64,000 nt of DNA from Nitrospiria bacterium (GCA_035517655.1 DATIYJ010000029.1:18230-82229), one strand, 5' to 3'. Numbered from the stretch's first letter, positions 1 through 28,194 are shown. Made by a program: numbers and translations. The notes: generated from the sequence alone by a model not told the origin.

Positions 1-243
1 TCTCGCCGACCGGCGTCGTATTCGGTATCGCATGGAACGGGCTGACCCGTCCCGATCTGACATCGCTCCTGGGCTCCTATGCCGCAGAGTACAAGGAAGC
101 CTTACGGCAGACACCCCGCAAGCCCGGCCACCGCAGGTCCTCCGTGGTACACACGAACCGGATCATTGTGGAGCAATGGGGACATATACGGAACATGCAG
201 GGGCGCGCCTACGCACCGGCCTTAATTCCTCCGGGATTGAGCG

Positions 244-1473
244 TTGATGAAATCAAATAAAATACTGCTTCTTCCGTTGATCCTAATGCTGGTGACGAAC
301 TGTGGAGGCGGCGGTTCGGGCGGAGGATCGGGTAGCTCATCGGGATCGGGAAATGGCGTGGGCGTCCTCCCGACAGGGAACAACGTCCTTTCTCTCACCG
401 TAAACGGTTCGCTCTGCTCGAGCAACCCTGCCAATAATTATATCAACGAGCCGTGCGTCAGCGTCACGGTCTGCAGTCCCGGCACATCGACCTGTCAGAC
501 GATCGACGACATCCTTCTGGATACCGGAGACGTCGGGCTGCGGATATTCAAGCAGGTTCTGACCGTTCCTCTTACGGCGGTCACCGAGGGCGCCAACCCG
601 ATTGCGGAGTGTGTCCCTTACTTGGACACCACTTCGAATTGGGGGCCCATCGAGACGGCGGACGTCGTCCTCGGAAATGAGCCGGCCGTTTCGGTCCCGA
701 TCCAGGTGATCGACTCCACATTCCCCGGCGCCCCCACGGCATGTCAGAACCCAAACCAAGATCCGACCGACGCCGGATTCAACGGAAGCCTGGGGCTTGA
801 TTTCATTCTTCAGGACTGTGGCTTGGGATGTGTAAATAGTATTCCATCACCTCCTTGGTATTACTCCTGCAATGGATCGAGCTGCAGTGGAACCACGGTC
901 GCGCTTGCCGACCAGGTTCAAAACCCCGTGGCGCTTCTGCCTGAGGATAACAACGGTGTTATCGTAGAGATTCCTGGCATCTCTTCTGGCGGGACTCCTT
1001 CCGTCAACGGCGCACTGGTGCTCGGAATCGGCACGCAGTCCAACAATACGCCTTCCGGGGTGACGGCATATGATGCCGACCCGGGCTCAGGGGATTTCAT
1101 CACAGTGATCGGCAACGTCGCTTACGGCAGTTTCATCGACAGCGGTTCAAACGGCCTGTTTTTTCCTCCACCCTCTTCAACCTCGCTTCCAACCTGCGCC
1201 TCACCCGATTCAGACTGGTTCTGTCCTTCGTCCACCAAGACCCTTTCCGCCACAAACATCGGAGCCTCCGGCTCACCGAGCGGCACGGTCTCATTTCAGA
1301 TAGGCAACTTCGACAGCCTTTTGAACTCACCCAACAATGTCTTCGCCGATATCGGCGGACCCAACCCGGGTGAATTCGACTGGGGGCTTCCCTTCTTCTT
1401 CGGACGAAAAGTCTACATAGGCATCGAAGGACTCAAATCCGGCCTGGGCACCGGCCCCTATTGGGCCTATTAA
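244..1473 (+). CDS. Secreted lipoprotein with Gly/Ser-rich linker and two D-T/S-G motifs (pepsin-like aspartic peptidase fold suspected; DUF3443-like)
   Basis: 409 aa ORF. N-terminus MMKSNKILLLPLILMLVTNC followed by GGGGSGGGSGSSSGSG is a lipobox signal. Two hydrophobic-D-T/S-G motifs (ILLDTGDVGL, SFIDSGSNGLFF) are spaced like the two catalytic lobes of A1 peptidases. Cys-rich. Confidence 0.6.
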   Translation: MMKSNKILLLPLILMLVTNCGGGGSGGGSGSSSGSGNGVGVLPTGNNVLSLTVNGSLCSSNPANNYINEPCVSVTVCSPGTSTCQTIDDILLDTGDVGLRIFKQVLTVPLTAVTEGANPIAECVPYLDTTSNWGPIETADVVLGNEPAVSVPIQVIDSTFPGAPTACQNPNQDPTDAGFNGSLGLDFILQDCGLGCVNSIPSPPWYYSCNGSSCSGTTVALADQVQNPVALLPEDNNGVIVEIPGISSGGTPSVNGALVLGIGTQSNNTPSGVTAYDADPGSGDFITVIGNVAYGSFIDSGSNGLFFPPPSSTSLPTCASPDSDWFCPSSTKTLSATNIGASGSPSGTVSFQIGNFDSLLNSPNNVFADIGGPNPGEFDWGLPFFFGRKVYIGIEGLKSGLGTGPYWAY

Positions 1474-1601: not shown

Positions 1602-3134
1602 TCAGCGATGGGCCTTTCTATTGACGACGGGTTGACCGGTAGCCGGATCAAGAAATAGGATCTTGGCCGTTTGATCGTGCCCGAAGTTGAACATGTTGAG
1701 CAGGGAGCCGGCCTTTTCATCGAGCGAGCCGTTTCCGATCCGGCCGGTCTGCCAGTTGTCCTCGATGAAGCGAAGAACCGAGGTCTGATCGGTGACGGCG
1801 TGGTCGACGAAGTTCGGCTTCGCGTACGGTGAGACCACCAAAAGCGGCTGGCGCGGACCGTAGCCGCAACGATCCGGATAGCCGCCCGAGATCATTCCCT
1901 CGTTCGTTCCGCAGTCCGTCCCTCGCAGCGCGTCGTGCGCGCTGTCGTTCGACTGGTTCACGATCGGGCTCATCTGATGGTCGTACCAGCCGTCCGAGTC
2001 GTCATAGAGGATGATGACCGCCGTGTCGTCCCAGTACTCGGTCTTCTCAAGCCGGTTGATCGTGTTCACGAGAAACTGCTGCTCGTCAAGCGGGTCGGAA
2101 TAACCGGCATGGCCGTCCTGGTAGGCGGCCGCTTTGAGAAAACTGACGGCGGGCATGTGATGCGCGTCGACCGCGTCCCAGAAATCCGGCAGGTCGTACT
2201 GATGATTCGCCTGGTCGGTCCGGCCGATCATGGACACGGAACTCGGCGGCAGGTGCTGCAAATTCGCCGTCGAGGCGAAGAACTGGAACGGCTGATGGTG
2301 CGGGATGTAATCCTTGCTGGTCTGGTTGCCGACATTGGTATGGGACGCGTTGCAGTCCGCGAAACCGCCCTCGAACCAGCCCCACGTGATCCCCTTTGCG
2401 TTCAACAGGTCGCCGATGTTTTTGTTGTTCGGATCGATCGAGGTCGTGTTGTCGCGAGTGTCGCAGATGTCGCCGGTCGGTTGCGGATCGCCGATCACGG
2501 TGTTGTTGGCGGTGACCGCGCTGCTCGTAGTCGCGAAGCCGTGCGTCTGGCCCGAAATAAGATTAAGAGCGCCCGGCGCGGACGGCCCGAACCCCGCGTC
2601 GTAGGAGTTGTCGCTCATCGCGAAGTTCTGGGCGTAGTTCCAGAGCGCGGTAACAGTATTGCCGTCATAATAGCCCATAACCAGCCCCGGTCCGTAGCCG
2701 TAGTCGACGCAGGTTCCGGCCCCGCGGCCGACCGTCTCGACGAATTTATCCATCAGGCCGTGGTCGAAGGCCTTCTGCTCGTCCGTATACCCGTGATCCT
2801 GATCGCAGGTCTCGGCCTGGTCATGCGACAATCGGAAGGGCTGAACCGAGTTCGGGTTGTTCGGCGCGAGCAGCGGCTCGTTAAGACCGTTCACCGCTGG
2901 CGTGCCGGACTTGGGCGTGAAGGTCGAGCCGTCCGTGTTCGCCGCGTTCGGATAGGTCGCAAAATAATGATCGAACGAGACGTTCTCCTGAAAAATAACC
3001 ACCACGTGATTGATGGGGGTGGTGGTTTCGGATTCGTGATGGCCGGTGTCCGCCTGGACGGCTTCGCAGAGACCGACGGCCGCCAAAAGCGCCAAGGCCA
3101 GCTTGGCCCATTTCTTGACAAGATGCCCTTGCAT
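1602..3134 (-). CDS. Phosphoesterase family protein (phospholipase C / acid phosphatase AcpA-like), secreted
   Basis: 510 aa. Signal peptide MQGHLVKKWAKLALALLAAVGLCEAVQA. Motif HVVVIFQENVSFDHYFATYP is typical of the PLC/AcpA phosphoesterase family. Confidence 0.8.
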   Translation of the reverse strand: MQGHLVKKWAKLALALLAAVGLCEAVQADTGHHESETTTPINHVVVIFQENVSFDHYFATYPNAANTDGSTFTPKSGTPAVNGLNEPLLAPNNPNSVQPFRLSHDQAETCDQDHGYTDEQKAFDHGLMDKFVETVGRGAGTCVDYGYGPGLVMGYYDGNTVTALWNYAQNFAMSDNSYDAGFGPSAPGALNLISGQTHGFATTSSAVTANNTVIGDPQPTGDICDTRDNTTSIDPNNKNIGDLLNAKGITWGWFEGGFADCNASHTNVGNQTSKDYIPHHQPFQFFASTANLQHLPPSSVSMIGRTDQANHQYDLPDFWDAVDAHHMPAVSFLKAAAYQDGHAGYSDPLDEQQFLVNTINRLEKTEYWDDTAVIILYDDSDGWYDHQMSPIVNQSNDSAHDALRGTDCGTNEGMISGGYPDRCGYGPRQPLLVVSPYAKPNFVDHAVTDQTSVLRFIEDNWQTGRIGNGSLDEKAGSLLNMFNFGHDQTAKILFLDPATGQPVVNRKAHR

Positions 3135-3308
3135 GGTTTTATCCTCCTTGTTGGGATGTTAACGCAACCAGTTTAACGGACGATTGTAAATTCTCCCTCA
3201 AGAGATCATTAATAGGATGTTAAATCTGATCGAAGCGGGCGGTTGATAAAATCGGCCTATCCATGTATCCTACGCCATATTAAATTATTTCCATGTGAGA
3301 AACCGGGA

Positions 3309-4226
3309 ATGGACCAGAAAATCGGCGTTTTATTGATGGCCTACGGAGCGGCCGGCTCGCTGGACGAGATCGAGCCGTATTTGAACGATATTCGTGGCGG
3401 ACGGCCCACGAGCCCGCAGTTGGTGGAGGAGGTCAAGCACCGCTACCGACTCATGGGCGGGAAATCGCCGTTGCTCGAAATCACGAAACAACAGGCGGCC
3501 GCACTGGAGAAAACGCTCAACGGGAATCGCCCGCGCTTCAAAGTCTATATCGGGATGCGCCACTGGCATCCTTATATAAAGGATACGGTGGCGGCCATGG
3601 CGGCGGACGGCCTGCTGGAGATCGTCGGCCTTTGCCTGACCCCCTACTATTCGAAAATGAGCGTGGGAGCGTACTATCAAAAATTGGATGACGCGGCCGC
3701 GGCGGCCGGCGCGCCGTTTAAAATCCGACGCATCGAAAGTTGGAACGATCATCCCAAGCTGATCGAGGCGATCGCCGAAAAGATCACCCGGGCCCTGGAA
3801 CGGTTTCCGGTCGGCGTTCGGGAAAAAGTCCCCTTGCTTTTCTCGGCGCACAGCCTGCCGGAACGAATCCTGGCCGAAAAGGATCCGTATCCGGAGGAGC
3901 TCCACGAAACGATCGAGTTGGTGATGAAAAAGGTCGGGGCGTACGCCTGGCGCTTCGCCTACCAGAGCCGGGGCCGAACCCCCGAGCCCTGGCTGGGCCC
4001 GGACGCGGGCGCGGTGATCGATGAGCTTCTCGCGCAGGGGCACCGCCGCCTCCTGATGGCCCCGATCGGGTTCATCTCGGACCACATGGAAACGCTCTAC
4101 GACGTGGACGTGATGTACCGCGAGCAGTGTCAGGCGAAGGGGATGCAACTGGAACGCGCGGAATCCCTCAACGCCTCGCCCGCGTTTATCGAGACGCTGG
4201 CGGCCGTCGTCCTGGAGAATCTTTAA
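3309..4226 (+). CDS. hemH: Ferrochelatase (proto- or coproporphyrin ferrochelatase)
   Basis: Starts MDQKIGVLLMAYGAAGSLDEIEPYLNDIRGGRPTSP (ATG at 3309). Conserved ferrochelatase core including the HS...E region (LLFSAHSLPERI). Confidence 0.85.
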   Translation: MDQKIGVLLMAYGAAGSLDEIEPYLNDIRGGRPTSPQLVEEVKHRYRLMGGKSPLLEITKQQAAALEKTLNGNRPRFKVYIGMRHWHPYIKDTVAAMAADGLLEIVGLCLTPYYSKMSVGAYYQKLDDAAAAAGAPFKIRRIESWNDHPKLIEAIAEKITRALERFPVGVREKVPLLFSAHSLPERILAEKDPYPEELHETIELVMKKVGAYAWRFAYQSRGRTPEPWLGPDAGAVIDELLAQGHRRLLMAPIGFISDHMETLYDVDVMYREQCQAKGMQLERAESLNASPAFIETLAAVVLENL

Positions 4227-4267
4227 ACAAGCCACGGTCATCATTTGGCACCCACTCCACGACCACC

Positions 4268-5728
4268 ATGACATCCATACAGAAAAAAGTCATCATTATC
4301 GGCGGCGGGATCACCGGCCTGGCCGCGGCCTATGCCCTCCAGGAACGGGCCCGCAAAAACCGGGCGCCGATTTCCTTTACCCTCCTCGAAGGCCAGTCCC
4401 GTCTGGGCGGCAAAATCCTGACCGACACCGAAAACGGCCTCGTGATGGAAGGCGGACCGGACTCGTTTATCTCACAAAAACCCTGGGCGCTGGAACTCTG
4501 CCGGCAACTGGGGCTTGAAAATCGATTGACCAAGACCAGTCCGGATCAGACCGCCACTTACATTCTGCACAACGGGCGACTGGTAAACCTTCCGGAAGGA
4601 ATCATGCTTCTGGTGCCGACACGCCTCGGCCCCTTCCTCACGACCCCGCTCTTCTCCCCGCTCGGAAAATTACGGATGGGGATGGACTGGATCATCCCTC
4701 GAAAGCAAACCGCCGAAGATGAAAGTCTTGCCGCCTTCGTCCGACGCCGGCTGGGGCGGGAAGCGGTGGACCGGCTGGCCGAGCCGCTCCTGGCCGGAAT
4801 TTACGCCGGCGACGCCGAACGGATGAGCCTGGCCGCCACTTTTCCGCAATTCCAGGAGTTGGAAAACCGCTACGGCAGCCTGATCCGTGGAATGCTGGCC
4901 CGAAGACGCGAACGGCCAAGGCCAGTTGCGCTCGGCAAAGAACCGCCGGCGAAAACGGCTCCCCTCACGATGTTCATGACGCTCAAAGGCGGGCTGACCG
5001 AGATGGTCACGGCCGTCGTCTCAAAACTGGATCGGGACGCTTTGACCGTCGGCACGGAGGCGGAACGTATCCATTGGAGAGCCGGTCTCTCGACCTATCG
5101 GGTCCGATTGAAGAACGGAACGACGATGACGGCCTCGGCCGTCATCGTCACCTCCCCGGCCTACGTCACGGCCGGACTCCTCGAAGAAACGGACGCCACA
5201 CTCGTCCGGACGCTCCGCGAAATCCCGTATGTTTCGACCGCCACCGTCTCGTTGGCCTACCGCAAGGACCTGTTTCGACACCCGCTGAACGGTTTCGGCT
5301 TTGTCGTCCCGCGGCGCGAAGGACGCAGCATCATGGCCTGCACCTGGACCTCGAGCAAGTTTCCGCACCGCGCGCCGGCGGACCGGGTGCTGCTGCGCTG
5401 TTTCGTGGGCGGGGCCGGGAGAGAAGAAGTCGTGAGCCTGCCCGACAAGAACCTGGTGGGCCGCGTCCGCGACGATCTCCGCGCAACCATGGGCGTCGTG
5501 GAGGAGCCGATCCTCAGCCGGGTCTACCGCTGGGAAAAAGCCAATCCGCAATACCCGGTCGGCCATCTCGACCGCCTGGCCGAGATCGACGACCGCCTGA
5601 CTCGATTCCCGGGACTGTTTTTTGCGGGCGCGGCCTACCGCGGCGTGGGCGTGCCGGATTGCATCCGCCAGGGAAATGAGGCGGCGGAACGGGCTTTCAA
5701 ATTCCTTACCTCAAATCCATCCCCGTAG
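4268..5728 (+). CDS. hemY: FAD-dependent protoporphyrinogen/coproporphyrinogen oxidase (HemY-type)
   Basis: ATG at 4268, MTSIQKKVIIIGGGITGLAAAYAL (GxGxxG FAD fold). HemY-like length and C-terminus. Directly follows hemH. Confidence 0.85.
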   Translation: MTSIQKKVIIIGGGITGLAAAYALQERARKNRAPISFTLLEGQSRLGGKILTDTENGLVMEGGPDSFISQKPWALELCRQLGLENRLTKTSPDQTATYILHNGRLVNLPEGIMLLVPTRLGPFLTTPLFSPLGKLRMGMDWIIPRKQTAEDESLAAFVRRRLGREAVDRLAEPLLAGIYAGDAERMSLAATFPQFQELENRYGSLIRGMLARRRERPRPVALGKEPPAKTAPLTMFMTLKGGLTEMVTAVVSKLDRDALTVGTEAERIHWRAGLSTYRVRLKNGTTMTASAVIVTSPAYVTAGLLEETDATLVRTLREIPYVSTATVSLAYRKDLFRHPLNGFGFVVPRREGRSIMACTWTSSKFPHRAPADRVLLRCFVGGAGREEVVSLPDKNLVGRVRDDLRATMGVVEEPILSRVYRWEKANPQYPVGHLDRLAEIDDRLTRFPGLFFAGAAYRGVGVPDCIRQGNEAAERAFKFLTSNPSP

Positions 5729-5957
5729 CCTTTCTATTCTTCTGCTAAAATAAGAGAGTGTCTATACCCGGATCTGTTAAGCATTCGGGTGAACTTATTG
5801 GCGTGTTCTCTTCCTCGCATTGCACAGGGGGTTATTCAGCGAGCAAGGCGAGCGAGAGGGGGAGACTCCATCCGGCTTGGCCGGCCTGCACTCGGCGGCT
5901 TGCAGCCGATGTGTGGAGGGAGCGACGCGAGCCCCTACAAATAAAAGGAGGACGCTT

Positions 5958-6524
5958 ATGGCCGGCTGGATCCTGCTGGGTATTGTCGTTTTCTTATTCT
6001 TGTGGCTGGTGATCGTATACAACGGGCTGGTGTCGCTTCGAAATCAGGTTCAGAACGCCTGGAGGCAGATCGACGTTCAACTCAAACGGAGGCATGATCT
6101 CATCCCGAACCTGGTCTCGACCGTCAAGGGCGCGATGGCCTTTGAACAGGATACGCTTGAAAAGGTGATCACCGCCCGGGCCAAGGCCGTCTCGGCCACG
6201 AACCTGCAGGACAAGGCCGCATCCGAAAACATGCTGACGCAGGCCCTCGGAAAACTTTTCGCCGTGATGGAAAACTACCCCCAGCTCAAATCGAACGAAA
6301 ACATCATGCAGCTGCAGGAGGAATTGACCTCCACCGAAAACCGCATCGGCTTCGCCCGGCAATTCTACAACGATCTGGTCGCTTCCTACCGAACCAGACA
6401 GCAGATCTTCCCGAACAACTTCCTCGTCAACCTGTCCGGAGGTTTCAAGCCGGAAGATTACTTCGAGGCGGAGCGGGCCGACCGCGACGCGCCCATGGCG
6501 GATCTGAGCCTCCGGACACGATAA
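5958..6524 (+). CDS. lemA: LemA family membrane protein
   Basis: MAGWILLGIVVFLFLWLVIVYNGLVSLRNQVQNAWRQIDVQLKRRHDLIPNLV is the canonical LemA N-terminus. RBS aaggagg 7 nt upstream of the ATG. Confidence 0.85.
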   Translation: MAGWILLGIVVFLFLWLVIVYNGLVSLRNQVQNAWRQIDVQLKRRHDLIPNLVSTVKGAMAFEQDTLEKVITARAKAVSATNLQDKAASENMLTQALGKLFAVMENYPQLKSNENIMQLQEELTSTENRIGFARQFYNDLVASYRTRQQIFPNNFLVNLSGGFKPEDYFEAERADRDAPMADLSLRTR

Positions 6525-6527
6525 ACC

Positions 6528-8177
6528 ATGCCGTTCACCTTCATCGAGATCGAGGAGCGGAAAACGTGGAGGATCTGGCTCTTCATTCTCGTTCTCCTTC
6601 TTCTCTACTTGGCCGTCCTGGCGACACTCACGGTCGCGGTGGCCCAGACGGTCTTTATACCGTATCACGCCTTGCTCAACCCGCGGTTCCTGCTGCTCCT
6701 TGTCGCGACTTCGCTGACGGCCGCCGTCACCCATTTCTGTTTTTCAACTTTGGGCGTGGTCGATTTTATCCGGGACAATCTCGGGGCGCTCGAACCCGAT
6801 CCCGAGGACGGCATCCACAAACGCCTGCTGAACATTCTGCGGGAGATCGAGGTGGTCACCGGAAACCGGAGAAAGATCGAGGGCCGGGTGATCCCGACGC
6901 TCGCAATGAACGCCCTCGCCGTCGTGAACCTCCGGGGAAACGCCACGATCGCGGTCACCGAAGGCCTGCTTTCAAGACTCACGCGGCCGCAGTTGGAGGC
7001 GGTCATGGCCCACGAGGCCTATCACATCATCTCGGGAGATTGTCTGGAGACAACGGTGGCCGCCAGCCTTTTCGGACTGCCGTCCTCCGCGTTCGAAAAG
7101 TTTTCGAGAACCATGACCGCATCGGCCCGTCTGTCTCCGGTGCTTCTCTTGGTCTGGTGTCTGCTGAAGCTCAGCCAGATTTTCAATATGCTCATCTCCC
7201 GGGAACGGGAGTATCGGGCCGACGCCGGCGCGGTGCGTATGACGCGCAACCCGTTGGCGCTGGCCGAAGCCCTTCAATTATTGTCGCGGAATTGGAGAGG
7301 CACCGGTTTCATCGGCAACGGCTTCGAGATGCTCTGTATCGTGAATCCCGTGGCGAAGGCCCTGGACGAGACGGAAGGCCGGTGGGCCGATCTGATGTCG
7401 ACCCATCCCCCGATTCAGAAACGGATCGATATTCTATTGAAAATGGCCCATGCGGAGCTGTCGGAACAGATCGTAAAAGCGGCGTCCGCAGCCGGCGCCG
7501 CTACCGCCAAGCCTTCCGAATCGGTCTTCCACGCCTTGGATCCCCAACACCAATGGCAGGGGCCTTTTACACTGCCGGAACTTTACGCCCTGCCCTGGAT
7601 TTCCCCGCTCACGTGGATCAACGACGGAGGCCCGGCGATCGAGCGGGCTTGGAAGATGCCGCAGATCGATCCGGCGATTTTCACAAAACGTCTGGCCGAG
7701 GAGGCGTCGCCGGTCAGCCGGTTCCTCTGCCCTTCCTGCCATCAGCCTTTGCTGGAAATCACCTATGAACGGACGCAGATCGATCAATGCCACTTCTGCG
7801 GCGGGGCCTTGGTTGAAAGCGACCGGATACCGCGGATTATCGCACGGACCGAAAACCCGGCCACGGACCGGATCCAGTCGTTGTCAAAAGCGGCGATGCA
7901 GGAAAGCCAGCTCCGAGGAATCGGACGGCAAATGGAGCAAAGCGACCGGAAAGCGATCCCGCTCCGCAATTGCCCCAAATGCAGCCATCCGATGATGAGG
8001 ACGTTTTACACGCTCGCCTATCCGGTCCAGATCGACCGGTGCAGCTCCTGCAGTGTAACCTGGTTCGATCCGGACGAGCTCGAGATGCTCCAATGCATGA
8101 TCGCCAACAAAATGGCTGCGGAGCCGCTGGGTTCCACTCCCGACGCCGAAAATCCCGAAAAAGTTTTAACCCCATGA
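6528..8177 (+). CDS. M48-family Zn metallopeptidase (HtpX-like) fused to two C-terminal zinc-ribbon (zf-TFIIB-like) domains
   Basis: N-terminal TM helices. HEAYHI (HExxH) and downstream EREYRAD Glu ligand. Two CPxC...IDxCxxCxGxWFDxxEL zinc-ribbon units at the C-terminus. ATG is 4 nt after the lemA stop (known LemA/M48 pairing). Confidence 0.8.
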   Translation: MPFTFIEIEERKTWRIWLFILVLLLLYLAVLATLTVAVAQTVFIPYHALLNPRFLLLLVATSLTAAVTHFCFSTLGVVDFIRDNLGALEPDPEDGIHKRLLNILREIEVVTGNRRKIEGRVIPTLAMNALAVVNLRGNATIAVTEGLLSRLTRPQLEAVMAHEAYHIISGDCLETTVAASLFGLPSSAFEKFSRTMTASARLSPVLLLVWCLLKLSQIFNMLISREREYRADAGAVRMTRNPLALAEALQLLSRNWRGTGFIGNGFEMLCIVNPVAKALDETEGRWADLMSTHPPIQKRIDILLKMAHAELSEQIVKAASAAGAATAKPSESVFHALDPQHQWQGPFTLPELYALPWISPLTWINDGGPAIERAWKMPQIDPAIFTKRLAEEASPVSRFLCPSCHQPLLEITYERTQIDQCHFCGGALVESDRIPRIIARTENPATDRIQSLSKAAMQESQLRGIGRQMEQSDRKAIPLRNCPKCSHPMMRTFYTLAYPVQIDRCSSCSVTWFDPDELEMLQCMIANKMAAEPLGSTPDAENPEKVLTP

Positions 8178-8255: not shown

Positions 8256-9383
8256 TCACTGCACCGTCACGGTGGCGCCGGAGCAGAAGGTGTTGTTCCC
8301 TTCGTCCGTCTCGACCACGGCATTGAGCGAATCGGCCATGGCACAGACATAGTAAGTGCCCACCGGTACCGTGCTTGGTATCGATAGACTCGTGGTGGCC
8401 GAACTGCTCGCCCCTGCTGCTAATAATGTCACCGATCGGATCGTCGAGATCACTACATCATCCGAATCGCCATAAATATTATTCACCGATAGCCTAAAGC
8501 CGATCCGGAACGCGGTGCTGGCGATCAACCCCTGGTTTTGGACCGTGTTGCCCACCGAAAGCGTTGACCTGCGATTGACCGTGGCCGCATTCGGCGTCAC
8601 GGCCGTCATCTCCAGATCCGCACGCGTGACCTGGACCGGCGTGGCCGTGCAATTCGCGTTGTTGTTCTCATTCCCTTCCGCGACCGTGTTGCCGCTGTCG
8701 GCCATCGCGCAGACGTAGTAAAACCCAGGAGGCGTGCTGGACGGAACAGTCAGCGTGTTTGTAGCTGTGCTGCTCGCCCCAATGGCCAAGGCTGTTAAGG
8801 ATCGAGTCAACGCCATCGCAATGTCGTCTGCCCCGCTATACGTCGCATCCGATGAGAAATGGAAAGCGATCGTAAAAGCCCCGGCTTTTGATCCTCCCTG
8901 GTTCTTCACCGTGTTGGAAAGCGTGAAAGTCTTGCCCGGCGCCACCGCCGTCGCCGTGGCAGAGACCGCGGTCATAGTCAGATCCGCGGCCGGCACAGTA
9001 ACCGTGCCTGAGCCGCATAACGTGTTATTGGTCTCGTCCGTCTCGACCACGGCGTTCACGGGATTTCCACCATTGTCGCTCAAATCTTTCACAAAGGGTG
9101 CCTGTGCCAAGGCCCACCTTTGGAGCTGAGTGACCTGAATGCTCAGGGAACCGGTGCACCGTGTATTGTTGGTCTCGTCGGATTCGGCTACGCTATTCGC
9201 GTTGTCAGCCTTCGCGCACACAACGTAGCTTCCCGGAGGAGTTGTGGAAGGAAAAGTGAGCGTCGTCGTAGCCGTGCTGCTCGCCCCCGCCGCTAATGAA
9301 CCGACTGATCGGGTGGCCGTGAAAGCAATATCATCGGCATCCCCATAGACCGTGTTGGTCGAAAGATGAAACGCCACAACCAA
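8256..9383 (-). pseudogene. CARDB-repeat cell-surface protein, apparently 5'-truncated (3.5 CARDB repeats, no signal peptide, TTG pseudo-start)
   Basis: Repeats of NQG..A..F.IAFH.S.D..Y...DD....T.RS...LAAGASS.AT..L..PS..P.G.YYVCA.AD..N.V.E..E.NN. The reading frame stays open upstream to about 9445, matching repeat consensus (ARSVSNTVTNQ) with no ATG. It then runs into unrelated AT-rich sequence with a stop near 9531-9533. Confidence 0.55.
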
Positions 9384-12853: not shown

Positions 12854-15800
12854 GTGGTGACCTCAGGCAGAGTTGAGAGAATTCACGCATCGGTGCCGGG
12901 GAGGGCTCGATTTCATGTCCCGGCGCTCCGGCGGTCAAACGCGCTCAAGCGCTGGCTGGAAAGCGAACTCATCGGATCGTCCGGAATCGAGCGCGCTTCC
13001 GCCAGTCCCGCAACGGGCAACGTCCTCGTTTATTACAATCCCCCCGTGGGTCCGCAGAACGTCGCGGACCACATCCGCGACATTCTCGAAAGGTTCCCGG
13101 CGGCCGCGCGTTCAATGCCGGTTTTGGATCCCGCAACGGGCTCGTCCCCCGCCCCGCCGGTTCCGGCGTCGCGGCGTCCCGAATCCCCGGCTGAAACGTG
13201 GCATCGGCTTTCCGCGAGCGCGGCGCTGTCGGCGCTTGAGGCGAATCCGGCGGGCCTGGCCGCCGACGAAATCGCCGAACGGCTCAGGCGGCACGGGAGG
13301 AACATCCTTCCCGGAGCGGAGCCCGCCTCGGCGCTCGGCACCTTTGTCGATCAGTTCAGATCGCTGCCCGCCGCACTGCTGGTGGGCGGAGCGGCGCTTT
13401 CCTTTCTGACCGCGGGCGCGGCCGAGGCCTTTGTGATCCTGGGGGCCGTGGGGCTCAACGCCGTGATCGGATTCATGATCGAGCGTCGGGCCGAGACGAC
13501 GATCCGATCGCTCAGGAGCCTCGTGCGTCCCCCCGCGTGGGTCATCCGCGACGGCGAAATCCGATCGATTGACGCGGAGCAGGTGGTCCCCGGCGACATC
13601 CTCGTTCTGAAGCGCGGGGCGCTGGTGCCGGCGGACGGGCGGATCATCGACGCGAACCGGCTGCGCCTGAACGAGGCGGCCCTGACGGGCGAGAGCATGC
13701 CGGTTCCCAAACAAGCGGAGGTTCTCCTAGGCCCCGAAACGCCCGTCACCGAGCGCTTAAACATGGTGTACCGGGGAACGTGGGTGAGCGGCGGCAGCGG
13801 TCTGGCGGTGGCGGCCACAACGGGAAAATCCACCGAGCTGGGGCGCATCCACGGGTTGGTCCTCCAGGCGGAGGAACAGGCCACTCCGCTGGAGCGCACG
13901 CTGGATCGCTTGGCCCGTCAGCTGGTCTTGATCAGCGGGGTGGTCTGCGGCTTCTCACTTCTCACCGGCCTTCTGCGAGGGTACGGACTGTTGGAGATAC
14001 TCCAGGCCTCCCTCTCGATGGCGGTCGCGGCCATTCCCGAGGGTTTGCCGACGATCACGACCACGACCCTGGCCCTGGGCATTCAGAACATGCGCCGCCA
14101 CCGCGTGATGATTCACCGCCTGGAAGCGGTCGAGGCGCTCGGTTCCATTCAGATCATCTGCTTTGATAAAACCGGCACGATCACGCTGAACCAAGTCACG
14201 GCGCTCGCGATTCACTCGGGGATGCGACGGATCGATGTGGTCCGCGGAAGCCTCACGGCCCGGGGAGCCCCGATCGATCCGCTCGAATGCGAGGAGGTGC
14301 TCCGATTGATGCAGATCGGCGCCCTCTGCAGCGATACCGACGTTCGCCGCGAAGGCGGTGAATGGGTTGTGAACGGTCCGCCGATGGACAACGCCTTGGT
14401 GAACCTGGCCCTCCGTGCGGGCGTGGATGTCCTTGAACTCCGCAGGAGCCATCCCGTTGTGGCGGTGCGACGGGGCTCCGCGCATCGGAAATACATGATG
14501 AGCGTCCACGTCAGCGGGGAAGCGGGATCCGACGGAGCCGGCCTGATCACCGTGAAGGGCAGACCGTCGGCGATCCTGACCCGGTGCGGCTGGCAGATCA
14601 AAGCGGGCAAGAGACAGCCCCTCGACGAGGAGGACCGGCGTCAGATCGGGATCGAAGCGGATCGCTTTTCGGCCGACGGCATGCGCATCGTGGGTCTCGC
14701 CTACCGGGAAGTCGATTCTCCAAGCCATCTTCCCGAAAAGGATCCGTCCGACCTCACGTGGGTTGGAGCGGTCGGTTTCGCCGACCCCATCCGGGACGGC
14801 GCCAAGGAGCTCATCAACGCCTTTCATGAGGCCGGCATCGCCACGGTCATGATCACGGGCGATCGGAGCGCCGCCGCTTATTCCATCGCCAAAGAAATCG
14901 GCCTCGCCGGCCGGGATCAGATCGAGATCCTGGACTCCACGCACCTTCGCAATCTTGAGCCGGAGGTATTAAGCGGGCTCACCGAGCGGGTGCATGTGTT
15001 CGCCCGACTCAGCCCGACACAAAAGCGGGAGATCGTTCTGGCGCTGCAGCGCAGGGGAAAAGTGGTGGCCATGACGGGGGACGGAATCAACGACGCGCCG
15101 GCGCTGAAGGCCGCCGACATCGGCATTGCCATGGGAAAAAGCGGCACCGCCCTGGCCCGCGAGGTCGCGGACGTCGTCCTGGAGGACGATCGACTTGAAT
15201 CGATGATCATCGCCGTGCGGCAGGGACGCACCCTCTACGACAACATCCGCAAATCCGCCCGCTATCTCCTGGCCACGACGGTCGGGGAAATCATCGTGAG
15301 GTTCGCGGGAATCGCCCTGAATTTCGAACACCCCGCGCCGTTTCTGTGGGTCAATCCGATTTTCCCGGCGATGGCTTTGGCGCTGGAACCGTCGGAGCCC
15401 GACGTGTTGAAGCGTCCGCCCCGACCCTCGCAGCAGCCGATCATCGGGCCGGACGATCTAAAGAGAACCGCCTTCGAAGGGGGAATGATGTCGCTGGGGG
15501 TGCTGGGCGCCTACGGTTATGGATTGGCCCGCTACGGCCCCGGTGCTCAGGCCGGAACACTCGCCTTCCTGGGACTGTCTACGGCCCAACTCCTCCATGC
15601 GTTGAGCTGTCGTTCCGATCACAGCCGATTGTTCCTGACGGGCGTCGGGGGAGGACACCCACCCCTTCCCCCGAACCCTTATTTATGGCTCTCGATCGGC
15701 GGGACCCTGCTCCTGCAGGGTATCGGGCTGCTCATTCCAGGCGTGCGGAGTTTGCTCGGCTTCACCCCCATTTCGCTTCTTGACGGAGCGGTGATCGGCG

Positions 15801-15937
15801 CCGGCGCGGTGCTGCCGCTCCTGATCAACGACGCCGCCAAAGGAACGCCTCATAAGCGGCCTTCTTCATCCGAAGCCGTGATTCCCGGACCGGCCTTCGC
15901 ACGATCGACGGTCAACCCAAACGGGGCGAATGGTTAA
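12854..15937 (+). CDS. P-type cation-transporting ATPase (P2/P3-like) with ~110 aa N-terminal CxxC-less HMA-like extension and C-terminal tail
   Basis: ICFDKTGTITLN (DKTGT), MITGDRSAAAYSIAKEIG, VAMTGDGINDAPALKAADIGIAMG, and Cation_ATPase_N-like HRLSASAALSALEANPAGLAADEIAERLRRHGRN. Ten predicted TM helices. Confidence 0.85.
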   Translation: MVTSGRVERIHASVPGRARFHVPALRRSNALKRWLESELIGSSGIERASASPATGNVLVYYNPPVGPQNVADHIRDILERFPAAARSMPVLDPATGSSPAPPVPASRRPESPAETWHRLSASAALSALEANPAGLAADEIAERLRRHGRNILPGAEPASALGTFVDQFRSLPAALLVGGAALSFLTAGAAEAFVILGAVGLNAVIGFMIERRAETTIRSLRSLVRPPAWVIRDGEIRSIDAEQVVPGDILVLKRGALVPADGRIIDANRLRLNEAALTGESMPVPKQAEVLLGPETPVTERLNMVYRGTWVSGGSGLAVAATTGKSTELGRIHGLVLQAEEQATPLERTLDRLARQLVLISGVVCGFSLLTGLLRGYGLLEILQASLSMAVAAIPEGLPTITTTTLALGIQNMRRHRVMIHRLEAVEALGSIQIICFDKTGTITLNQVTALAIHSGMRRIDVVRGSLTARGAPIDPLECEEVLRLMQIGALCSDTDVRREGGEWVVNGPPMDNALVNLALRAGVDVLELRRSHPVVAVRRGSAHRKYMMSVHVSGEAGSDGAGLITVKGRPSAILTRCGWQIKAGKRQPLDEEDRRQIGIEADRFSADGMRIVGLAYREVDSPSHLPEKDPSDLTWVGAVGFADPIRDGAKELINAFHEAGIATVMITGDRSAAAYSIAKEIGLAGRDQIEILDSTHLRNLEPEVLSGLTERVHVFARLSPTQKREIVLALQRRGKVVAMTGDGINDAPALKAADIGIAMGKSGTALAREVADVVLEDDRLESMIIAVRQGRTLYDNIRKSARYLLATTVGEIIVRFAGIALNFEHPAPFLWVNPIFPAMALALEPSEPDVLKRPPRPSQQPIIGPDDLKRTAFEGGMMSLGVLGAYGYGLARYGPGAQAGTLAFLGLSTAQLLHALSCRSDHSRLFLTGVGGGHPPLPPNPYLWLSIGGTLLLQGIGLLIPGVRSLLGFTPISLLDGAVIGAGAVLPLLINDAAKGTPHKRPSSSEAVIPGPAFARSTVNPNGANG

Positions 15938-17991: not shown

Positions 17992-20900
17992 TCAATTCTG
18001 ATTTTCATCGACATCCACTTCAATGGTGACGCCCTTCTTAAAGCTAAGGGTCTCGAAAACATTCCGACCCCGCTTCCCCTTCCGGCCGTCGTCCCGCTTC
18101 TTGCCGTTATCCGCCTCCTCCTGCGACCCCGCCGTCGCCGCGGCTTCCGTCACGGTATCCTGGGCCGATGCGACCGCCGTCGAGGTCGCCGCCGTCGAGG
18201 TCGTCGAGATCGATCCGGTGGAGCCGGTGAGACCGCCCAAACCGGTGTTCGCCCCCGATGGAACGGTCGGAACCGCGGTCGGCGGGGGGGTTGGAACAAT
18301 GACGGGGGGCGGAGAGGAAACAAGCGTATTCCCGCCCACACTCCCTCCGACCGGTCCCGTAATCGCGGTTTGATCCCCCACGATTTGATCGACGTTGACC
18401 GTCACGACGCCCTGGACCGTCCCGCCCTGAAGGTCCAGGTTTTTCGCGTCGATCGTAATCGTCCTGCCCCGTATGCCGGCGGGCGGGACGATCACGTTTC
18501 CCGAAGGCGCGTCGAGGACGATGTCGCCGAGTTTCAAGTCCTTGATATAATCGGCCTTGATATTTTCGTACTCCGCCGTCGCCGCCTGGACGGCTTTTCC
18601 GACCTGGGTAGTATAGTCCGCGTTGAGTTGATCCACAATTTTGTCGACCATGGCCTGGTACTGTTGAACCTGGGCCTGGTATTCAGCCTTGTATTCGGCC
18701 TTGTATTCCGCTTCGAGGACGGACGTGTCGTGTCCGAGAATCGTTTGTTTTGAGATCTCCGTCTGGAGCGACTCCAGACCGAGTGTCATCGTAAACGTAA
18801 ACGGCGGCACGACCAGAGTCGGAGGAAGAGGAATGACCGGGGCGGGCGGAGGCGGGAAGGGAGGCAGCGGGTTTGGATCCAAGGGACTGAACGTAAATAT
18901 CCCGCTCCCGGGAACCTTGTAATCCAAGTATGTTTTGATGACGTTCCCCTGATCATCCGTCAGTTCATCCACAAAGATGAACTCCACCAGTTCGTCCTTG
19001 CCGCCGCTCCCGGCGTTGATGTTTCCTTCCGTCGAAGTGATATGGATGTCTCCGCCGCCGAACGTGGCCACTCTCGATTTATTGACGTTGACGTCGCCCG
19101 TCGCGGTAATATCGATCTCTCCTCCTCGAAGGGTCATCAAGCCCAGATACGTGCCAAACGGGGAAACCCCGGACGATTGGTTGGTGCCGATGTCGACGCT
19201 ACCGCCGACGGGGCTGTCCGGCCCGTTGAGCCCGTGGACCTGGATCGCCGCTCCGTTGTAGGTGACGATCCGGGACTGGGTCATTTCAAGGTTCCCGCCC
19301 ACCGCGATTTCCAGCAGACCCTTTGGAACAATATCGTCGGTCGGGATGTTGGTGTACCTCTGGTCGATGCCCTGACTATCCGCCAGATTAATGTTCCCGC
19401 CGGCCGACACAAACCCGCCGCCCGTCCCGATGAAATGCAGCCCGCTGACACTCCCCCCGGTCGGCGTCATATCGATGTTCCCCGCGGCGCCGACCGTCGC
19501 CTGGACGCCGTCGGGAACCGAGAGCGTCGCGACGAAATTGGTGATGTCGGCTCCCGATTGCACTGTCACCTGTTTTCGCAGGGTCGGGCTGTAAAAATCC
19601 AGAGTGAGATTATTGATATCCCCGGTCGCCGTCTTGAATGAAACCGGAATCACATCGTTCGAAACATTCGGGGCGGGCGTGTTCAACAGCGGGGTCAGCT
19701 CACCGACCTGCAGGCCGAGCAGGGCGTTCGGATCGGCCGGAACCAGTTTCAGGGTGGGAGGAATGCCATTGACCGGGATGCCCTGAATCGTATCTTGCGC
19801 AAAGAAGTCAAGGCCGCCGGTCGGAGAAGGCCAGAACGTGAGACCGGCTTCGACAAAGATGCTCCCTTGAGGCGCGGTCGCACTGAATGAAGCGGGATAA
19901 TATTGTCTCAACTGAACCAGTTCCGGGCTTTTTTCTCCGTCGGTGACGAGGGGCCGCAGATGGATGTCCCCGTTCGTCGCGGTAAGGCTCACCGCATTGC
20001 TTGGATCGGCCGTTAACGCCCGGTTCCCATAGTTTCCATCGACTCCTTCGGACAGACCCTTGTCCTGGACAAGCCCAAGATAAACCGACTGGCCTGCGGT
20101 CACATCCACCTCCCCCTTCCCGAGCGTCAGGTTTACATAGTTATCGGCCGCGCCGAAATTTCCGCCCACGGTGACATGGGCCTGACCGTTCGACATAAGA
20201 AACCCGCCCAGGAAATCGCCGCCGGCCCTGATCGTCAAGGTACCGGGTACATCCGTGTCCAAACGAAAACCGCTGTATAACAGAAAAGAGTTGTCAAAGG
20301 TGCTCGGCGCGATGATATTCCGGCCCGCCTGAATCGTCATGCTGCCCCCGTATCCCGTCCCCACGGTCGAGTTGGAAAGAACAATATCCCTTCCGGCCGT
20401 CGCCGAGATGTTCCAGGGGGCTCCGCCGTTCAGCCCGGAAGGATCATTGATGATGAGCGTATCGTTGAATCGGAGGTCGTTCCCCGCGGTGAAGGTGATT
20501 TTTCCCCGCGACCCGGGCGCGACGGACCAGCCGCTCAGATCCGTGAGGACGCCCGTCACGTTGATGTCGTGATCGGCCTGGAAATCCAGTTCCGTCAAAC
20601 CGCTGAAGGGGTCGAAGTCATCCTGTGTCACCGTGAGATCATAAGGGTCCAGAAGAAACTTGCCCCCGCCGTATCCCGGAATCGCTCCGCCGCGAACGCT
20701 TCCTCCCAGCGTCAGGTCGTGACCGCTCAGTTCGGCCGAGCCGCCGTCCCCCCCTCCCGCGCCGCCGGAAACATCGATGACGGCGCCCGGATCGAACCGC
20801 GACGTTCCGTGACTTTTGTCCGACGTCGCGACGATCGTGCCCCCGTTTGATACCCCCTCGTCGGATCCTTTCGCCGATGTGACGCTGCCGTCGGACAGAG

Positions 20901-21738
20901 TCAACTCATCGCTTGCAAAAAGTTCGATCCGCCCTTCCTTTTCACGAACGCTGTCGGCCTGGATGAGCCCTTCCTGGTTGATGACGCGGGCATAGATGTT
21001 AACGTTCCCTCCGTCGGCAATCAGGTCTTCGAGGTTGACCGCCTCCCCGGTCGGATTTTTGACCTGGACCAGAAATCCCCGACCGTCCGGGCGGTCCGTC
21101 AGATAGGCCACCGTTCCGGCCGCCAGGACGATCTGTCCCTCCGGGCTCCGGATGAGACCGTTGTTCTCCACGTTCGGCGCGAAAAGATAGACGTACCCTC
21201 CCGAACCGGTTTCGATCGTCCCCGCGTTCTTCACCGATCCGGCGGCGGCCGTTCCGTTGAAGAGATATTTTCCCGCGAGAAAATTCCCATCGCTCAGGTT
21301 CAGAGAAGACGCGACCAAGCCGTTCACGTTGACCTGAGCGCTCGGGCCGAACATCACACCGTTGGGATTAAGAAGAATGACGGAGCCGTTGGCCTGAAGC
21401 GATCCGAAGATCTGGCTCGGATTTGCGTCGAAGATCCGGTTCAACGCGATGGACTGGGCCGTCGGCTGAATGAAGCGGGTGACCTCATTGGGCGCGATAT
21501 TGAACTGCTGCCAGCTCAGAATTGCTTTGGGGGTTGTCTGATTGATGGTCACGACCGAAGTCCCGACGCCTGAAACTGCGGCCCCGCCGTTCACCACGGT
21601 CGGCCCCAAGGGATTCGCAAGGGTCGTTTCGGGAAAAAGCAGGGATGCGCATAGAAGGAAGACGAGGATCCAGTTTTCGGACATGGCCGTACGTCTAAAA
21701 TCCACATTTTGCATTCCCCTCATGGCGAAGACCCCCAC
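17992..21738 (-). CDS. Two-partner-secretion exoprotein (TpsA) with N-terminal TPS/haemagglutination-activity domain and atypical Pro-rich/coiled-coil/basic C-terminus
   Basis: 1248 aa. TPS domain NPLGPTVVNGGAAVSGVGTSVVTINQTTPKAILSWQQFNIAPNEVTRF...NPNGVMFG. Gly/Asn-rich beta-helix body. C-terminal PLPPFPPPPAPVIPLPP, KAEYKAEYKAEYQ, S/T-rich region and a KKRDDGRKGKRGR tail. Confidence 0.8.
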   Translation of the reverse strand: MGVFAMRGMQNVDFRRTAMSENWILVFLLCASLLFPETTLANPLGPTVVNGGAAVSGVGTSVVTINQTTPKAILSWQQFNIAPNEVTRFIQPTAQSIALNRIFDANPSQIFGSLQANGSVILLNPNGVMFGPSAQVNVNGLVASSLNLSDGNFLAGKYLFNGTAAAGSVKNAGTIETGSGGYVYLFAPNVENNGLIRSPEGQIVLAAGTVAYLTDRPDGRGFLVQVKNPTGEAVNLEDLIADGGNVNIYARVINQEGLIQADSVREKEGRIELFASDELTLSDGSVTSAKGSDEGVSNGGTIVATSDKSHGTSRFDPGAVIDVSGGAGGGDGGSAELSGHDLTLGGSVRGGAIPGYGGGKFLLDPYDLTVTQDDFDPFSGLTELDFQADHDINVTGVLTDLSGWSVAPGSRGKITFTAGNDLRFNDTLIINDPSGLNGGAPWNISATAGRDIVLSNSTVGTGYGGSMTIQAGRNIIAPSTFDNSFLLYSGFRLDTDVPGTLTIRAGGDFLGGFLMSNGQAHVTVGGNFGAADNYVNLTLGKGEVDVTAGQSVYLGLVQDKGLSEGVDGNYGNRALTADPSNAVSLTATNGDIHLRPLVTDGEKSPELVQLRQYYPASFSATAPQGSIFVEAGLTFWPSPTGGLDFFAQDTIQGIPVNGIPPTLKLVPADPNALLGLQVGELTPLLNTPAPNVSNDVIPVSFKTATGDINNLTLDFYSPTLRKQVTVQSGADITNFVATLSVPDGVQATVGAAGNIDMTPTGGSVSGLHFIGTGGGFVSAGGNINLADSQGIDQRYTNIPTDDIVPKGLLEIAVGGNLEMTQSRIVTYNGAAIQVHGLNGPDSPVGGSVDIGTNQSSGVSPFGTYLGLMTLRGGEIDITATGDVNVNKSRVATFGGGDIHITSTEGNINAGSGGKDELVEFIFVDELTDDQGNVIKTYLDYKVPGSGIFTFSPLDPNPLPPFPPPPAPVIPLPPTLVVPPFTFTMTLGLESLQTEISKQTILGHDTSVLEAEYKAEYKAEYQAQVQQYQAMVDKIVDQLNADYTTQVGKAVQAATAEYENIKADYIKDLKLGDIVLDAPSGNVIVPPAGIRGRTITIDAKNLDLQGGTVQGVVTVNVDQIVGDQTAITGPVGGSVGGNTLVSSPPPVIVPTPPPTAVPTVPSGANTGLGGLTGSTGSISTTSTAATSTAVASAQDTVTEAAATAGSQEEADNGKKRDDGRKGKRGRNVFETLSFKKGVTIEVDVDENQN

Positions 21739-21741
21739 GTG

Positions 21742-24050: not shown

Positions 24051-24114
24051 TTTTCCCCTTCTCCCTTTTATACTCGAGCCCGTTTCCGAATGGCGGAATC
24101 GTGCTCTCTTTAGA

Positions 24115-25539: not shown

Positions 25540-25599
25540 AATCCTCCTGACCTCGGGAACGCATGGATGGACAACCGGGCCACATCCCGTTGGTTGTTC

Positions 25600-26379: not shown

Positions 26380-26395
26380 ATTCACTCCGATGCCT

Positions 26396-28141: not shown

Positions 28142-28194
28142 CGAACGTAAACCCTTTCATGCTCTTTTCACCGGACTGCGTCAGGGCCCTGTCC

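What the first reader, a model, noticed from the sequence alone, without database searches (positions are those of the whole stretch)
244..1473. Lipoprotein with two pepsin-like D-T/S-G lobes: candidate bacterial A1-like aspartic peptidase
After the lipobox and a (GGS)n tether the protein carries LLDTGDVGL (~residue 95) and FIDSGSNGLFF (~residue 300). Each has the hydrophobic-hydrophobic-D-T/S-G-small pattern, and they are spaced like the N- and C-lobe catalytic motifs of pepsin-family peptidases. Bacterial pepsin homologues are rare. This may belong to an uncharacterised DUF family (I suspect DUF3443).
Basis: partly seen in the sequence, partly recalled or inferred. Interest (0 to 1): 0.5.

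Follow-up and report, generated by a model that had tools for sequence, protein, structure and literature searches.

The report
Bacterial lipoprotein with pepsin fold
This gene encodes an exported, probably lipid-anchored bacterial protein (Pfam DUF3443) whose predicted structure is a two-lobed pepsin-type aspartic protease with both catalytic aspartates conserved, so pepsin-like proteins may be far more common in bacteria than published surveys suggest.

Summary

Both aspartates are kept in 478 of 485 homologues. The family also conserves a flap aromatic residue (F/Y126) and both psi-loop glycines (ILG184, WG381) at pepsin-like spacing.

Sequence searches (Pfam Asp/TAXi models, profile against PDB, hhalign) find no significant link to A1. 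It is therefore a separate, very large bacterial family with the pepsin fold (at least 2,411 clusters at 50% identity, at least 588 species genomes), not an A1 member by sequence.

New here: the gene is translationally coupled to a small secreted DUF2844 protein, present upstream in 76 of 81 loci. There is no prosegment, and ten cysteines are near-universal.

Catalytic activity is inferred, not shown. No searchable paper mentions DUF3443.

The parts
1..260 (+). 3' part of the upstream partner gene, cut by the window edge: the DUF2844 small secreted protein. The reading frame starts at base 3 and the stop TAA is at 258-260, overlapping the DUF3443 ATG247 by 14 nt.
   Evidence: PF11005 E=4e-28, profile positions 47-130 of 130. 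The full 157-aa gene is seen in the syntenic contig L001. The same arrangement is found in 76 of 81 loci.
244..1473 (+). DUF3443 gene, 409 aa counted from TTG244; the likely true start is ATG247.
   Evidence: ORF list; PF11925 E=6.4e-126; relatives begin MKSNK.
244..303 (+). Signal peptide (residues 1-19) and lipobox Cys20 (V-T-N-C; Asn at -1 is atypical).
   Evidence: Sequence. The Cys is aligned in 431 of 493 homologues, and most have the canonical (A/T)GC.
304..366 (+). Gly/Ser-rich flexible tether (residues 21-41). There is no prosegment.
Evidence: Sequence. The first strand of the fold starts at about residue 48.
367..1470 (+). Bilobal pepsin-fold domain (residues 42-409).
514..540 (+). 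N-lobe catalytic motif LLDTGDVGL. Asp93 is at 520-522; family consensus (I/V)L(L/V)DTGS(Y/F)GLR.
   Evidence: DTGS in 405 and DTGD in 45 of 493 homologues. hhalign places it on pepsin VIFDTGSSNLWV, so D93 corresponds to Asp32.
595..669 (+). Predicted flap beta-hairpin (residues 118-142) with Tyr126 (619-621) just before the tip. Family consensus C-x-x-(F/Y)-G-D-G-S, compared with pepsin I-T-Y75-G-T-G-S.
   Evidence: Model strands at residues 118-125 and 131-142. F in 303 and Y in 183 of 493 homologues; C123, W133 and G134 are near-invariant.
781..801 (+). N-lobe psi-loop motif N-G-S-L-G184-L-D (family consensus NGILGVG). The Asp-to-Gly spacing is 91, against 90 in pepsin.
   Evidence: ILG, VLG or LLG in 427 of 493 homologues. 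hhalign aligns it to pepsin DGILG122L.
1132..1164 (+). C-lobe catalytic motif FIDSGSNGLFF. Asp299 is at 1138-1140.
   Evidence: D-(S/T)-G-(S/T) in 483 of 493 homologues. It aligns with the protein's own N-lobe motif (LDTGSxGL / IDSGSNGL, E=0.0026).
1375..1407 (+). C-lobe psi-loop and following short helix, FDWG381LPFFFGR, compared with pepsin WILG302DVFIR. The Asp-to-Gly spacing is 82, against 87 in pepsin.
   Evidence: WG in 456 of 493 homologues. In the model a strand at 377-380 is followed by a helix at 382-385. The correspondence to pepsin is inferred from position, not from a significant alignment.

Best explanation
The gene encodes an exported, probably lipid-anchored, disulfide-rich aspartic endopeptidase with the pepsin fold. 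It belongs to the large bacterial family DUF3443.

After signal-peptide cleavage at Cys20, a flexible Gly/Ser tether of about 20 residues holds a single-chain two-lobed domain in the periplasm or at the cell surface. Each lobe contributes one Asp (Asp93 in DTG, Asp299 in DSG). As in pepsin, the two would together activate a water molecule in a cleft covered by a beta-hairpin flap carrying Tyr126.

It has no N-terminal prosegment. It is made from a two-gene operon, translationally coupled to a small secreted DUF2844 protein, which I infer is a physical partner: a regulator, inhibitor, chaperone or substrate.

Shown: family membership, fold, conservation of the catalytic apparatus, export signals and the gene pairing. 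Inferred: that the two Asp residues face each other, that the protein is proteolytically active, its localisation, and the role of DUF2844.
For: Family: PF11925, full length, E=6.4e-126.

Catalytic apparatus under selection: both Asp residues are kept in 478 of 485 homologues. D-T/S-G-S/T, flap F/Y (486/493), ILG-type N psi-loop and WG C psi-loop are near-universal across Nitrospirota, Thermodesulfobacteriota, Myxococcota, Bdellovibrionota and Acidobacteriota. These are the features Rawlings and Bateman list for active A1 enzymes (PMC2761423).

Collinear local profile alignments put D93 on pepsin Asp32 and G184 on Gly122.

Export: signal peptide plus a conserved lipobox Cys (431/493), ten near-universal cysteines, and Ig-like Big_2 N-terminal extensions in many relatives.

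Operon: DUF2844 lies immediately upstream on the same strand in 76 of 81 loci and is the only recurrent neighbour. The stop/start overlap is 14 nt in 33 loci and 4 nt in 22 of 72.

Precedent: a bacterial surface pepsin-fold enzyme is active. Mycobacterial PecA has DTG/DSG motifs and its D293G mutant is dead (PMC6819658; PMC13578627).
Against: No activity data exist for any DUF3443 protein, and no searchable paper mentions the family.

The window protein has Asp96 where pepsin has Ser35 and the family consensus has Ser (DTGD in 45 of 493). Twelve homologues have DTA.

The window's own lipobox has Asn at -1.

No sequence method gives a significant link to A1.
Confidence: 0.7

Rival explanations
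1. It is a catalytically inactive pepsin-fold protein that uses the cleft only for binding: a receptor, an inhibitor of another enzyme or a structural surface protein, in the manner of TAXI xylanase inhibitor, basic 7S globulin or the allergen Bla g 2. DUF2844 would be its ligand.
Against: Both Asp residues, the fireman's-grip Thr/Ser, both Gly residues, the flap aromatic and both psi-loop glycines are kept in about 97-99% of 493 homologues across at least five phyla. From my own knowledge, the known inactive homologues have lost catalytic residues. Rawlings and Bateman take conservation of these motifs as the criterion for predicted activity.
Confidence: 0.2
2. It is a true member of peptidase family A1 (PF00026), a divergent pepsin acquired from eukaryotes, like the shewasins described by Rawlings and Bateman.
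For: Same fold, same motifs and similar motif spacing.
Against: There is no PF00026, TAXi_N or TAXi_C hit even at E<=1. A 150-sequence profile finds no A1 chain in the PDB at E<=10. hhalign against a verified A1 alignment gives probability below 8% and only motif-length matches. Identity in structural alignments is 9-20%. The family spans many bacterial phyla with at least 2,411 clusters at 50% identity, which does not fit recent transfer. It also differs in having a lipoprotein signal, no prosegment, a different cysteine pattern and an obligate DUF2844 partner.
Confidence: 0.07
3. The two D-T/S-G motifs are coincidental and the protein has an unrelated fold, or it is a retropepsin-like single-lobe protease that dimerises.
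For: Two bare D-[ST]-G motifs arise by chance with P=0.11 in shuffles. There is no significant sequence link to any peptidase family.
Confidence: 0.02

Closest known systems
Eukaryotic family A1 pepsins (polyporopepsin 1wkr, penicillopepsin 1apt, endothiapepsin, rhizopuspepsin 2apr, BACE1)
   Different: No significant sequence similarity (9-19% identity; no PF00026 hit). No N-terminal prosegment or zymogen form. A bacterial lipoprotein signal and Gly/Ser tether. Ten to twelve conserved cysteines in a different pattern, against three disulfides in pepsin. The Asp-to-flap spacing is 33 residues, against 43. The C-lobe psi motif is D-W-G rather than I-L-G. It is encoded with an obligate DUF2844 partner.
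Mycobacterial surface aspartic proteases PecA / PE_PGRS16 / PE26 (structure 4ehc)
   Different: The mycobacterial enzymes are C-terminal domains of PE/PE_PGRS proteins exported by type VII secretion, restricted to mycobacteria. DUF3443 proteins are Sec/lipoprotein-type, occur in diderm phyla, have many disulfides and come with DUF2844. No sequence-level hit was found between them.
Shewasins and the other bacterial pepsin homologues of Rawlings and Bateman 2009
   Same: Bacterial, single-chain, two-lobed aspartic peptidases without a prosegment (PMC2761423; PMC4814920 abstract).
   Different: [quoted passage not shown] DUF3443 is a separate sequence family, exported, disulfide-rich and very widespread.
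Inactive pepsin-fold proteins (TAXI-type xylanase inhibitors, basic 7S globulin, Bla g 2)
   Different: From my own knowledge, these have lost or altered the catalytic motifs. DUF3443 keeps them in about 97-99% of members.
Bacteroides fragilis exported protein 9iy9 ('putative endopeptidase', released 2025)
   Different: Much weaker structural match, only 10% identity, and no paper found. Evidently a different family.

Membership tests
Pfam PF11925 (DUF3443) | Full-length match to the family HMM above the gathering score | tested here: met
   420.6 bits against a cutoff of 25, E=6.4e-126, profile positions 3-367 of 367.
Peptidase family A1 (pepsin; Pfam PF00026 Asp / TAXi_N / TAXi_C) | Statistically significant sequence similarity to a family member or HMM | tested here: not met
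   No Asp or TAXi hit at E<=1. phmmer and a 150-sequence profile against all PDB sequences find no A1 chain at E<=10. hhalign against a verified A1 alignment gives probability 1.7-7.5% and motif-length matches only.
Peptidase family A1 / clan AA pepsin-like fold | Single-chain bilobal pepsin fold | tested here: met
Peptidase family A1 | Two Xaa-Xaa-Asp-Ser/Thr-Gly-Ser/Thr motifs, one per lobe (PMC2761423) | tested here: met
   L-L-D93-T-G-D and F-I-D299-S-G-S. The family has DTGS in 405 of 493 and D(S/T)G(S/T) in 483 of 493. The query's last N-lobe position is Asp rather than Ser/Thr.
Peptidase family A1 | Flap beta-hairpin carrying Tyr75 | tested here: inconclusive
   The model has a hairpin at residues 118-125 / 131-142 with Tyr126 just before the tip. 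F/Y occurs in 486 of 493, and the consensus (F/Y)-G-D-G-S resembles pepsin Y-G-T-G-S. Phe is commoner than Tyr in the family, and I could not check the superposition on Tyr75 without coordinates.
Peptidase family A1 | Two hydrophobic-hydrophobic-Gly psi-loop motifs | tested here: met
   N-lobe: (I/V/L)-L-G184 in 427 of 493, aligned by hhalign to pepsin ILG122. C-lobe: W-G381 in 456 of 493 at the expected spacing, but preceded by Asp, so only partly canonical.
Peptidase family A1 | The two catalytic Asp carboxylates juxtaposed at the cleft base (fireman's grip) | not testable with these tools
   Model coordinates are not exposed. Juxtaposition is inferred from the full-length superpositions and motif alignments only.
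Peptidase family A1 | Pepstatin-sensitive endopeptidase activity, usually at acidic pH | not testable with these tools
   Needs biochemistry. No published data were found.
Peptidase family A1 (typical eukaryotic members) | N-terminal prosegment (zymogen) | tested here: not met
   Only a 21-residue Gly/Ser tether lies between Cys20 and the first strand of the fold at about residue 48.
Retropepsin-like families (A2, A32 and similar; single lobe, homodimer) | One lobe with one DTG motif per chain | tested here: not met
Bacterial lipoproteins | Signal peptide ending in a lipobox [LVI]-[ASTVI]-[GAS]-C | tested here: inconclusive
   The query has V-T-N-C, with a non-canonical Asn at -1. The aligned Cys is present in 431 of 493 homologues, and most close relatives have (A/T)-G-C.
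Mycobacterial PecA-type proteases | N-terminal PE domain with a YxxxD/E type VII secretion signal | tested here: not met
   The N-terminus is a Sec-type signal peptide, and no PE domain appears in the Pfam scan.

The most novel reading that the evidence does not exclude
DUF3443 and DUF2844 together form a widespread, previously undescribed bacterial extracytoplasmic pepsin system. The lipid-anchored enzyme lacks a built-in prosegment and is instead controlled in trans by the co-translated small secreted DUF2844 protein, acting as inhibitor, activation chaperone or dedicated substrate. As an ancient, phylum-spanning bacterial lineage with the bilobal fold, it would also bear on where eukaryotic pepsins came from.
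Probability: 0.25. Interest if true: 0.75.

Novelty: new variant of a known kind. Interest (0 to 1): 0.55.

Why it matters
Published surveys describe pepsin-type aspartic proteases as rare in bacteria and mostly cytoplasmic (PMC2761423; PMC6819658). If DUF3443 proteins are active, exported pepsin-fold enzymes are common in soil, sediment and peat bacteria: at least 2,411 clusters at 50% identity and at least 588 species genomes across at least five phyla.

That would have three consequences:
- It would add a new family to the pepsin-fold clan.
- It would give a function to two Pfam DUFs at once.
- It would offer a prosegment-free, partner-associated version of a heavily studied enzyme class.

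Cultured hosts are available for testing, including Geobacter sp. OR-1, Geomonas and Oryzomonas.

Tried and rejected
1. The first AF2 run, on 40 close homologues, gave a poor model (pLDDT 49). I did not use it for fold search. Adding diversity through two further homologue searches seeded with distant members fixed this.

2. Sequence-only routes to a known structure all failed: phmmer and a family profile against PDB sequences returned only linker or noise hits. hhalign against a pepsin/cathepsin D/chymosin alignment gave only motif-length, non-significant matches, and forced global alignment was meaningless.

4. Model coordinates are not exposed to the sandbox, so I could not measure the Asp-Asp distance, the disulfide pairing or the flap superposition.

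5. I looked for conserved neighbours other than DUF2844 in 81 loci and found none. The next family occurs in 13 loci, and the other clusters are shadow ORFs.

6. PADLOC defence models gave no hit for either protein. NCBIfam gave only a noise hit to the signal peptide.

7. A DUF2844 profile against PDB sequences found nothing credible.

8. Literature searches for DUF3443, PF11925, DUF2844 and the B. fragilis 9iy9 protein returned zero papers.

9. The weak internal match W133-G134 / W380-G381 (E=0.08) was considered as an alternative N-lobe psi-loop and set aside as probably chance. ILG184 has the pepsin-like spacing and aligns to pepsin ILG122.

Full report
**Observation**

The ORF at 244..1473 (+) is real and encodes 409 aa. 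Relatives start MKSNK, so ATG247 is the likely start. Numbering from TTG244:
- A hydrophobic signal sequence ends at Cys20 (L-V-T-N-C).
- A Gly/Ser-rich tether follows (residues 21-41).
- The only two D-[ST]-G motifs are LLD93TGDVGL and FID299SGSNGLFF.

In shuffles of the protein, two bare D-[ST]-G motifs are not unusual (P=0.11). Two with a hydrophobic-hydrophobic prefix are (P=0.003).

**Family and conservation**

The family is very large. There are more than 6,400 hits among the candidates scored in the 90%-clustered database. A full scan finds 2,411 clusters at 50% identity with E<=1e-3. At least 588 loci occur in species-representative genomes. The best 80 loci come from Nitrospirota, Thermodesulfobacteriota (Geobacter, Geomonas, Oryzomonas), Anaeromyxobacter, Bdellovibrionota and Acidobacteriota.

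Across the 493 homologues I held:

| Feature | Conservation |
|---|---|
| Both Asp residues | 478 of 485 that cover both sites |
| N-lobe motif | DTGS 405, DTGD 45 (includes the window protein), DTA(S/N) 12 |
| C-lobe motif D(S/T)G(S/T) | 483 |

Rawlings and Bateman (PMC2761423) list two further hallmarks of active A1 enzymes, and both are conserved at pepsin-like spacing:
- **Flap:** an aromatic residue, F/Y126, in 486 of 493, in the context C-x-x-(F/Y)-G-D-G-S (pepsin: I-T-Y75-G-T-G-S).
- **N-lobe psi-loop:** N-G-I-L-G184. The Asp-to-Gly spacing is 91, against 90 in pepsin.
- **C-lobe psi-loop:** F-D-W-G381-L-P-F-F. The spacing is 82, against 87 in pepsin.

Ten cysteines are near-universal, and one further pair (C58/C71) is clade-specific. 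The lipobox Cys aligns in 431 of 493.

**Fold**

A first model from 40 close homologues was poor (pLDDT 49). I added diversity with two further homologue searches seeded with distant members and built a 150-sequence alignment at 42-99% identity to the query. The model of residues 42-409 then reached pLDDT 96.6 and pTM 0.94, with no low-confidence segment.

- **Foldseek against PDB:** 392 hits at E<=1e-3. Every one of the 50 listed is an A1 aspartic peptidase: rhizopuspepsin 2apr (E=5.5e-12, probability 1.00, TM 0.58/0.65), BACE1 and endothiapepsin, at 12-16% identity.

In the model, each Asp follows directly on a beta-strand (84-93 and 292-298) and is followed by a turn and another strand. Tyr126 sits just before the tip of a hairpin (118-125 / 131-142). 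The C-lobe WG is followed by a short helix, as after ILG302 in pepsin (the comparison with pepsin is from my own knowledge and Table 1 of PMC11313796).

**Sequence relationship to A1**

None is significant.
- The Pfam scan at E<=1 returns only DUF3443.
- phmmer and the family profile against all PDB sequences find no A1 chain.
hhalign against their alignment gives only motif-length local hits.

Those local hits are ILLDTGSxGLRI on VIFDTGSSNLWV (D93 = Asp32; E=0.005 lobe against lobe) and aGfNGILGV on aPFDGILGL (G184 = Gly122). They are collinear, with offsets of 20-21 residues. The two lobes of DUF3443 also match each other only at LDTGSxGL / IDSGSNGL (E=0.0026), as is the case for pepsin's own lobes.

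By the usual sequence criterion, DUF3443 is a separate family sharing the pepsin fold, not a member of A1.

**Genomic context**

An open frame runs off the left edge of the window and stops at 258-260. It is the C-terminal two-thirds of a DUF2844 protein (PF11005, E=4e-28), and it overlaps ATG247 by 14 nt.

A syntenic contig carrying the 86%-identical relative P0002 shows the whole arrangement:
- divergent sensor kinase and response regulator genes
- DUF2844 (157 aa), then DUF3443
- a convergent phosphoesterase
- hemH, hemY, LemA and an M48 peptidase

In 81 loci, a DUF2844 ORF lies immediately upstream on the same strand in 76. Two of the exceptions are cut by contig ends, and three lack it even with a family HMM. 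No other neighbour family recurs in more than 13 loci. The stop/start overlap is 14 nt in 33 and 4 nt in 22 of 72 assessable loci. This is the signature of translational coupling and, by inference, of a fixed-ratio partnership.

DUF2844 has a signal peptide ending at a conserved A|xLG and no cysteines. It has invariant motifs (EY..G.vF.vaW.G...PD..LLG.Y and GHmR...GRAY.P.L.P). It has no PDB sequence relative and no PADLOC hit.

**Most likely mechanism**

Shown:
- Export signals.
- A pepsin fold.
- A conserved catalytic apparatus.
- No prosegment; only a 21-residue tether precedes the fold.
- An obligate co-encoded secreted partner.

Inferred:
- The protein is lipid-anchored in the periplasm or at the surface.
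- Asp93 and Asp299 face each other and activate water, as in pepsin.
- Tyr126 sits on a mobile flap.
- DUF2844 binds the enzyme as inhibitor, chaperone or substrate.

The precedent for an active bacterial surface pepsin-fold protease is mycobacterial PecA. It has DTG/DSG motifs, its D293G mutant is inactive, and substrates have been mapped (PMC6819658; PMC13578627).

The main rival is a non-catalytic binding protein, like TAXI, 7S globulin or Bla g 2. The near-universal retention of every catalytic hallmark argues against it, but only biochemistry can settle the question.

Caveats specific to the window protein: Asp96 replaces the consensus Ser (pepsin Ser35), and Asn sits at lipobox position -1.

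**Novelty**

No paper in the searchable library mentions DUF3443, PF11925 or DUF2844. Published statements still call bacterial aspartic proteases rare and mostly cytoplasmic.

The fold assignment may already be implicit in structure or domain databases. I could not query InterPro, Gene3D, Pfam clans or AFDB, so I rate this as a new variant of a known kind rather than categorically new.

**Limits**

- The activity, pH optimum, substrates and localisation are untested.

Noticed in passing
window 1-260 (+); L001 7541-8014: The window starts inside a DUF2844 gene whose stop overlaps the DUF3443 start by 14 nt. This pairing is conserved in 76 of 81 loci across phyla, and DUF2844 is itself uncharacterised: secreted, about 130 aa mature, no Cys, invariant GHxR...GRAY motif.
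   Followed up: yes
window 1602-3134 (-), hairpin 1539-1569: A convergent gene for a PF04185 phosphoesterase-family protein (phospholipase C / acid phosphatase type) with a signal peptide. A 14-bp GC-rich hairpin plus T-run on the minus strand lies between it and the DUF3443 stop. The neighbour is syntenic in L001 but not conserved across the family.
   Followed up: partly
window 3243-8177 (+): Ferrochelatase (hemH) and a protoporphyrinogen-oxidase-like flavoprotein (hemY type), followed by LemA and an M48 peptidase with C-terminal zinc ribbons. A CARDB-repeat protein is on the opposite strand at 8256-9383.
   Followed up: no
window 17992-23499 (-): A two-partner secretion pair: a 1,248-aa TpsA with an N-terminal TPS domain, downstream of a ShlB/FhaC-type TpsB with a POTRA domain.
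   Followed up: no
window about 24100-40550 (-): A large exopolysaccharide / PEP-CTERM locus: an AAA+TPR protein, a Wzz/GNVR chain-length protein, an 819-aa TPR protein, a GT4 glycosyltransferase, an exosortase EpsH fused to DUF3485 (34096-35697), a heparinase II/III-like protein and a fused ADH/GFO-IDH-MocA oxidoreductase. The region shows a sharp AT-skew swing, from -0.17 at 30-32 kb to +0.28 at 32-34 kb.
   Followed up: no
window 12854-15937 (+): A 1,027-aa P-type cation-transporting ATPase with N- and C-terminal cation-ATPase domains, in the most GC-rich stretch of the window (0.63-0.65).
   Followed up: no
homologues P0046, P0054, P0093, P0114, P0273-P0373: Many DUF3443 proteins replace the short Gly/Ser tether with long N-terminal arrays of Ig-like domains (Big_2 PF02368 and others), reaching 480-1,793 aa. 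This fits a surface-exposed or extended location for the protease domain.
   Followed up: partly
window 529-531 (Asp96); homologues: The window protein and 45 of 493 homologues have DTGD instead of DTGS, an acidic residue where pepsin has Ser35 next to the catalytic Asp. Twelve have DTA, with the Gly lost. The Cys58/Cys71 pair is clade-specific: absent or replaced in about a third of homologues (C58 mostly a gap, C71 mostly Phe), including the Acidobacteriota-type sequences added.
   Followed up: partly
loci L011, L019, L026, L027, L038, L054, L069 and others: Many host genomes are MAGs whose isolate names point to peat, palsa or bog sites (palsa_*, SPRUCE). This hints that the family may be enriched in acidic wetland soils, which would suit an acid protease. 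It rests on sample names only.
   Followed up: no
L038 1215-2902: In this Syntrophales contig the DUF2844 ORF lies just after the DUF3443 match rather than before it. This may mean tandem cassettes or a rearrangement.
   Followed up: no
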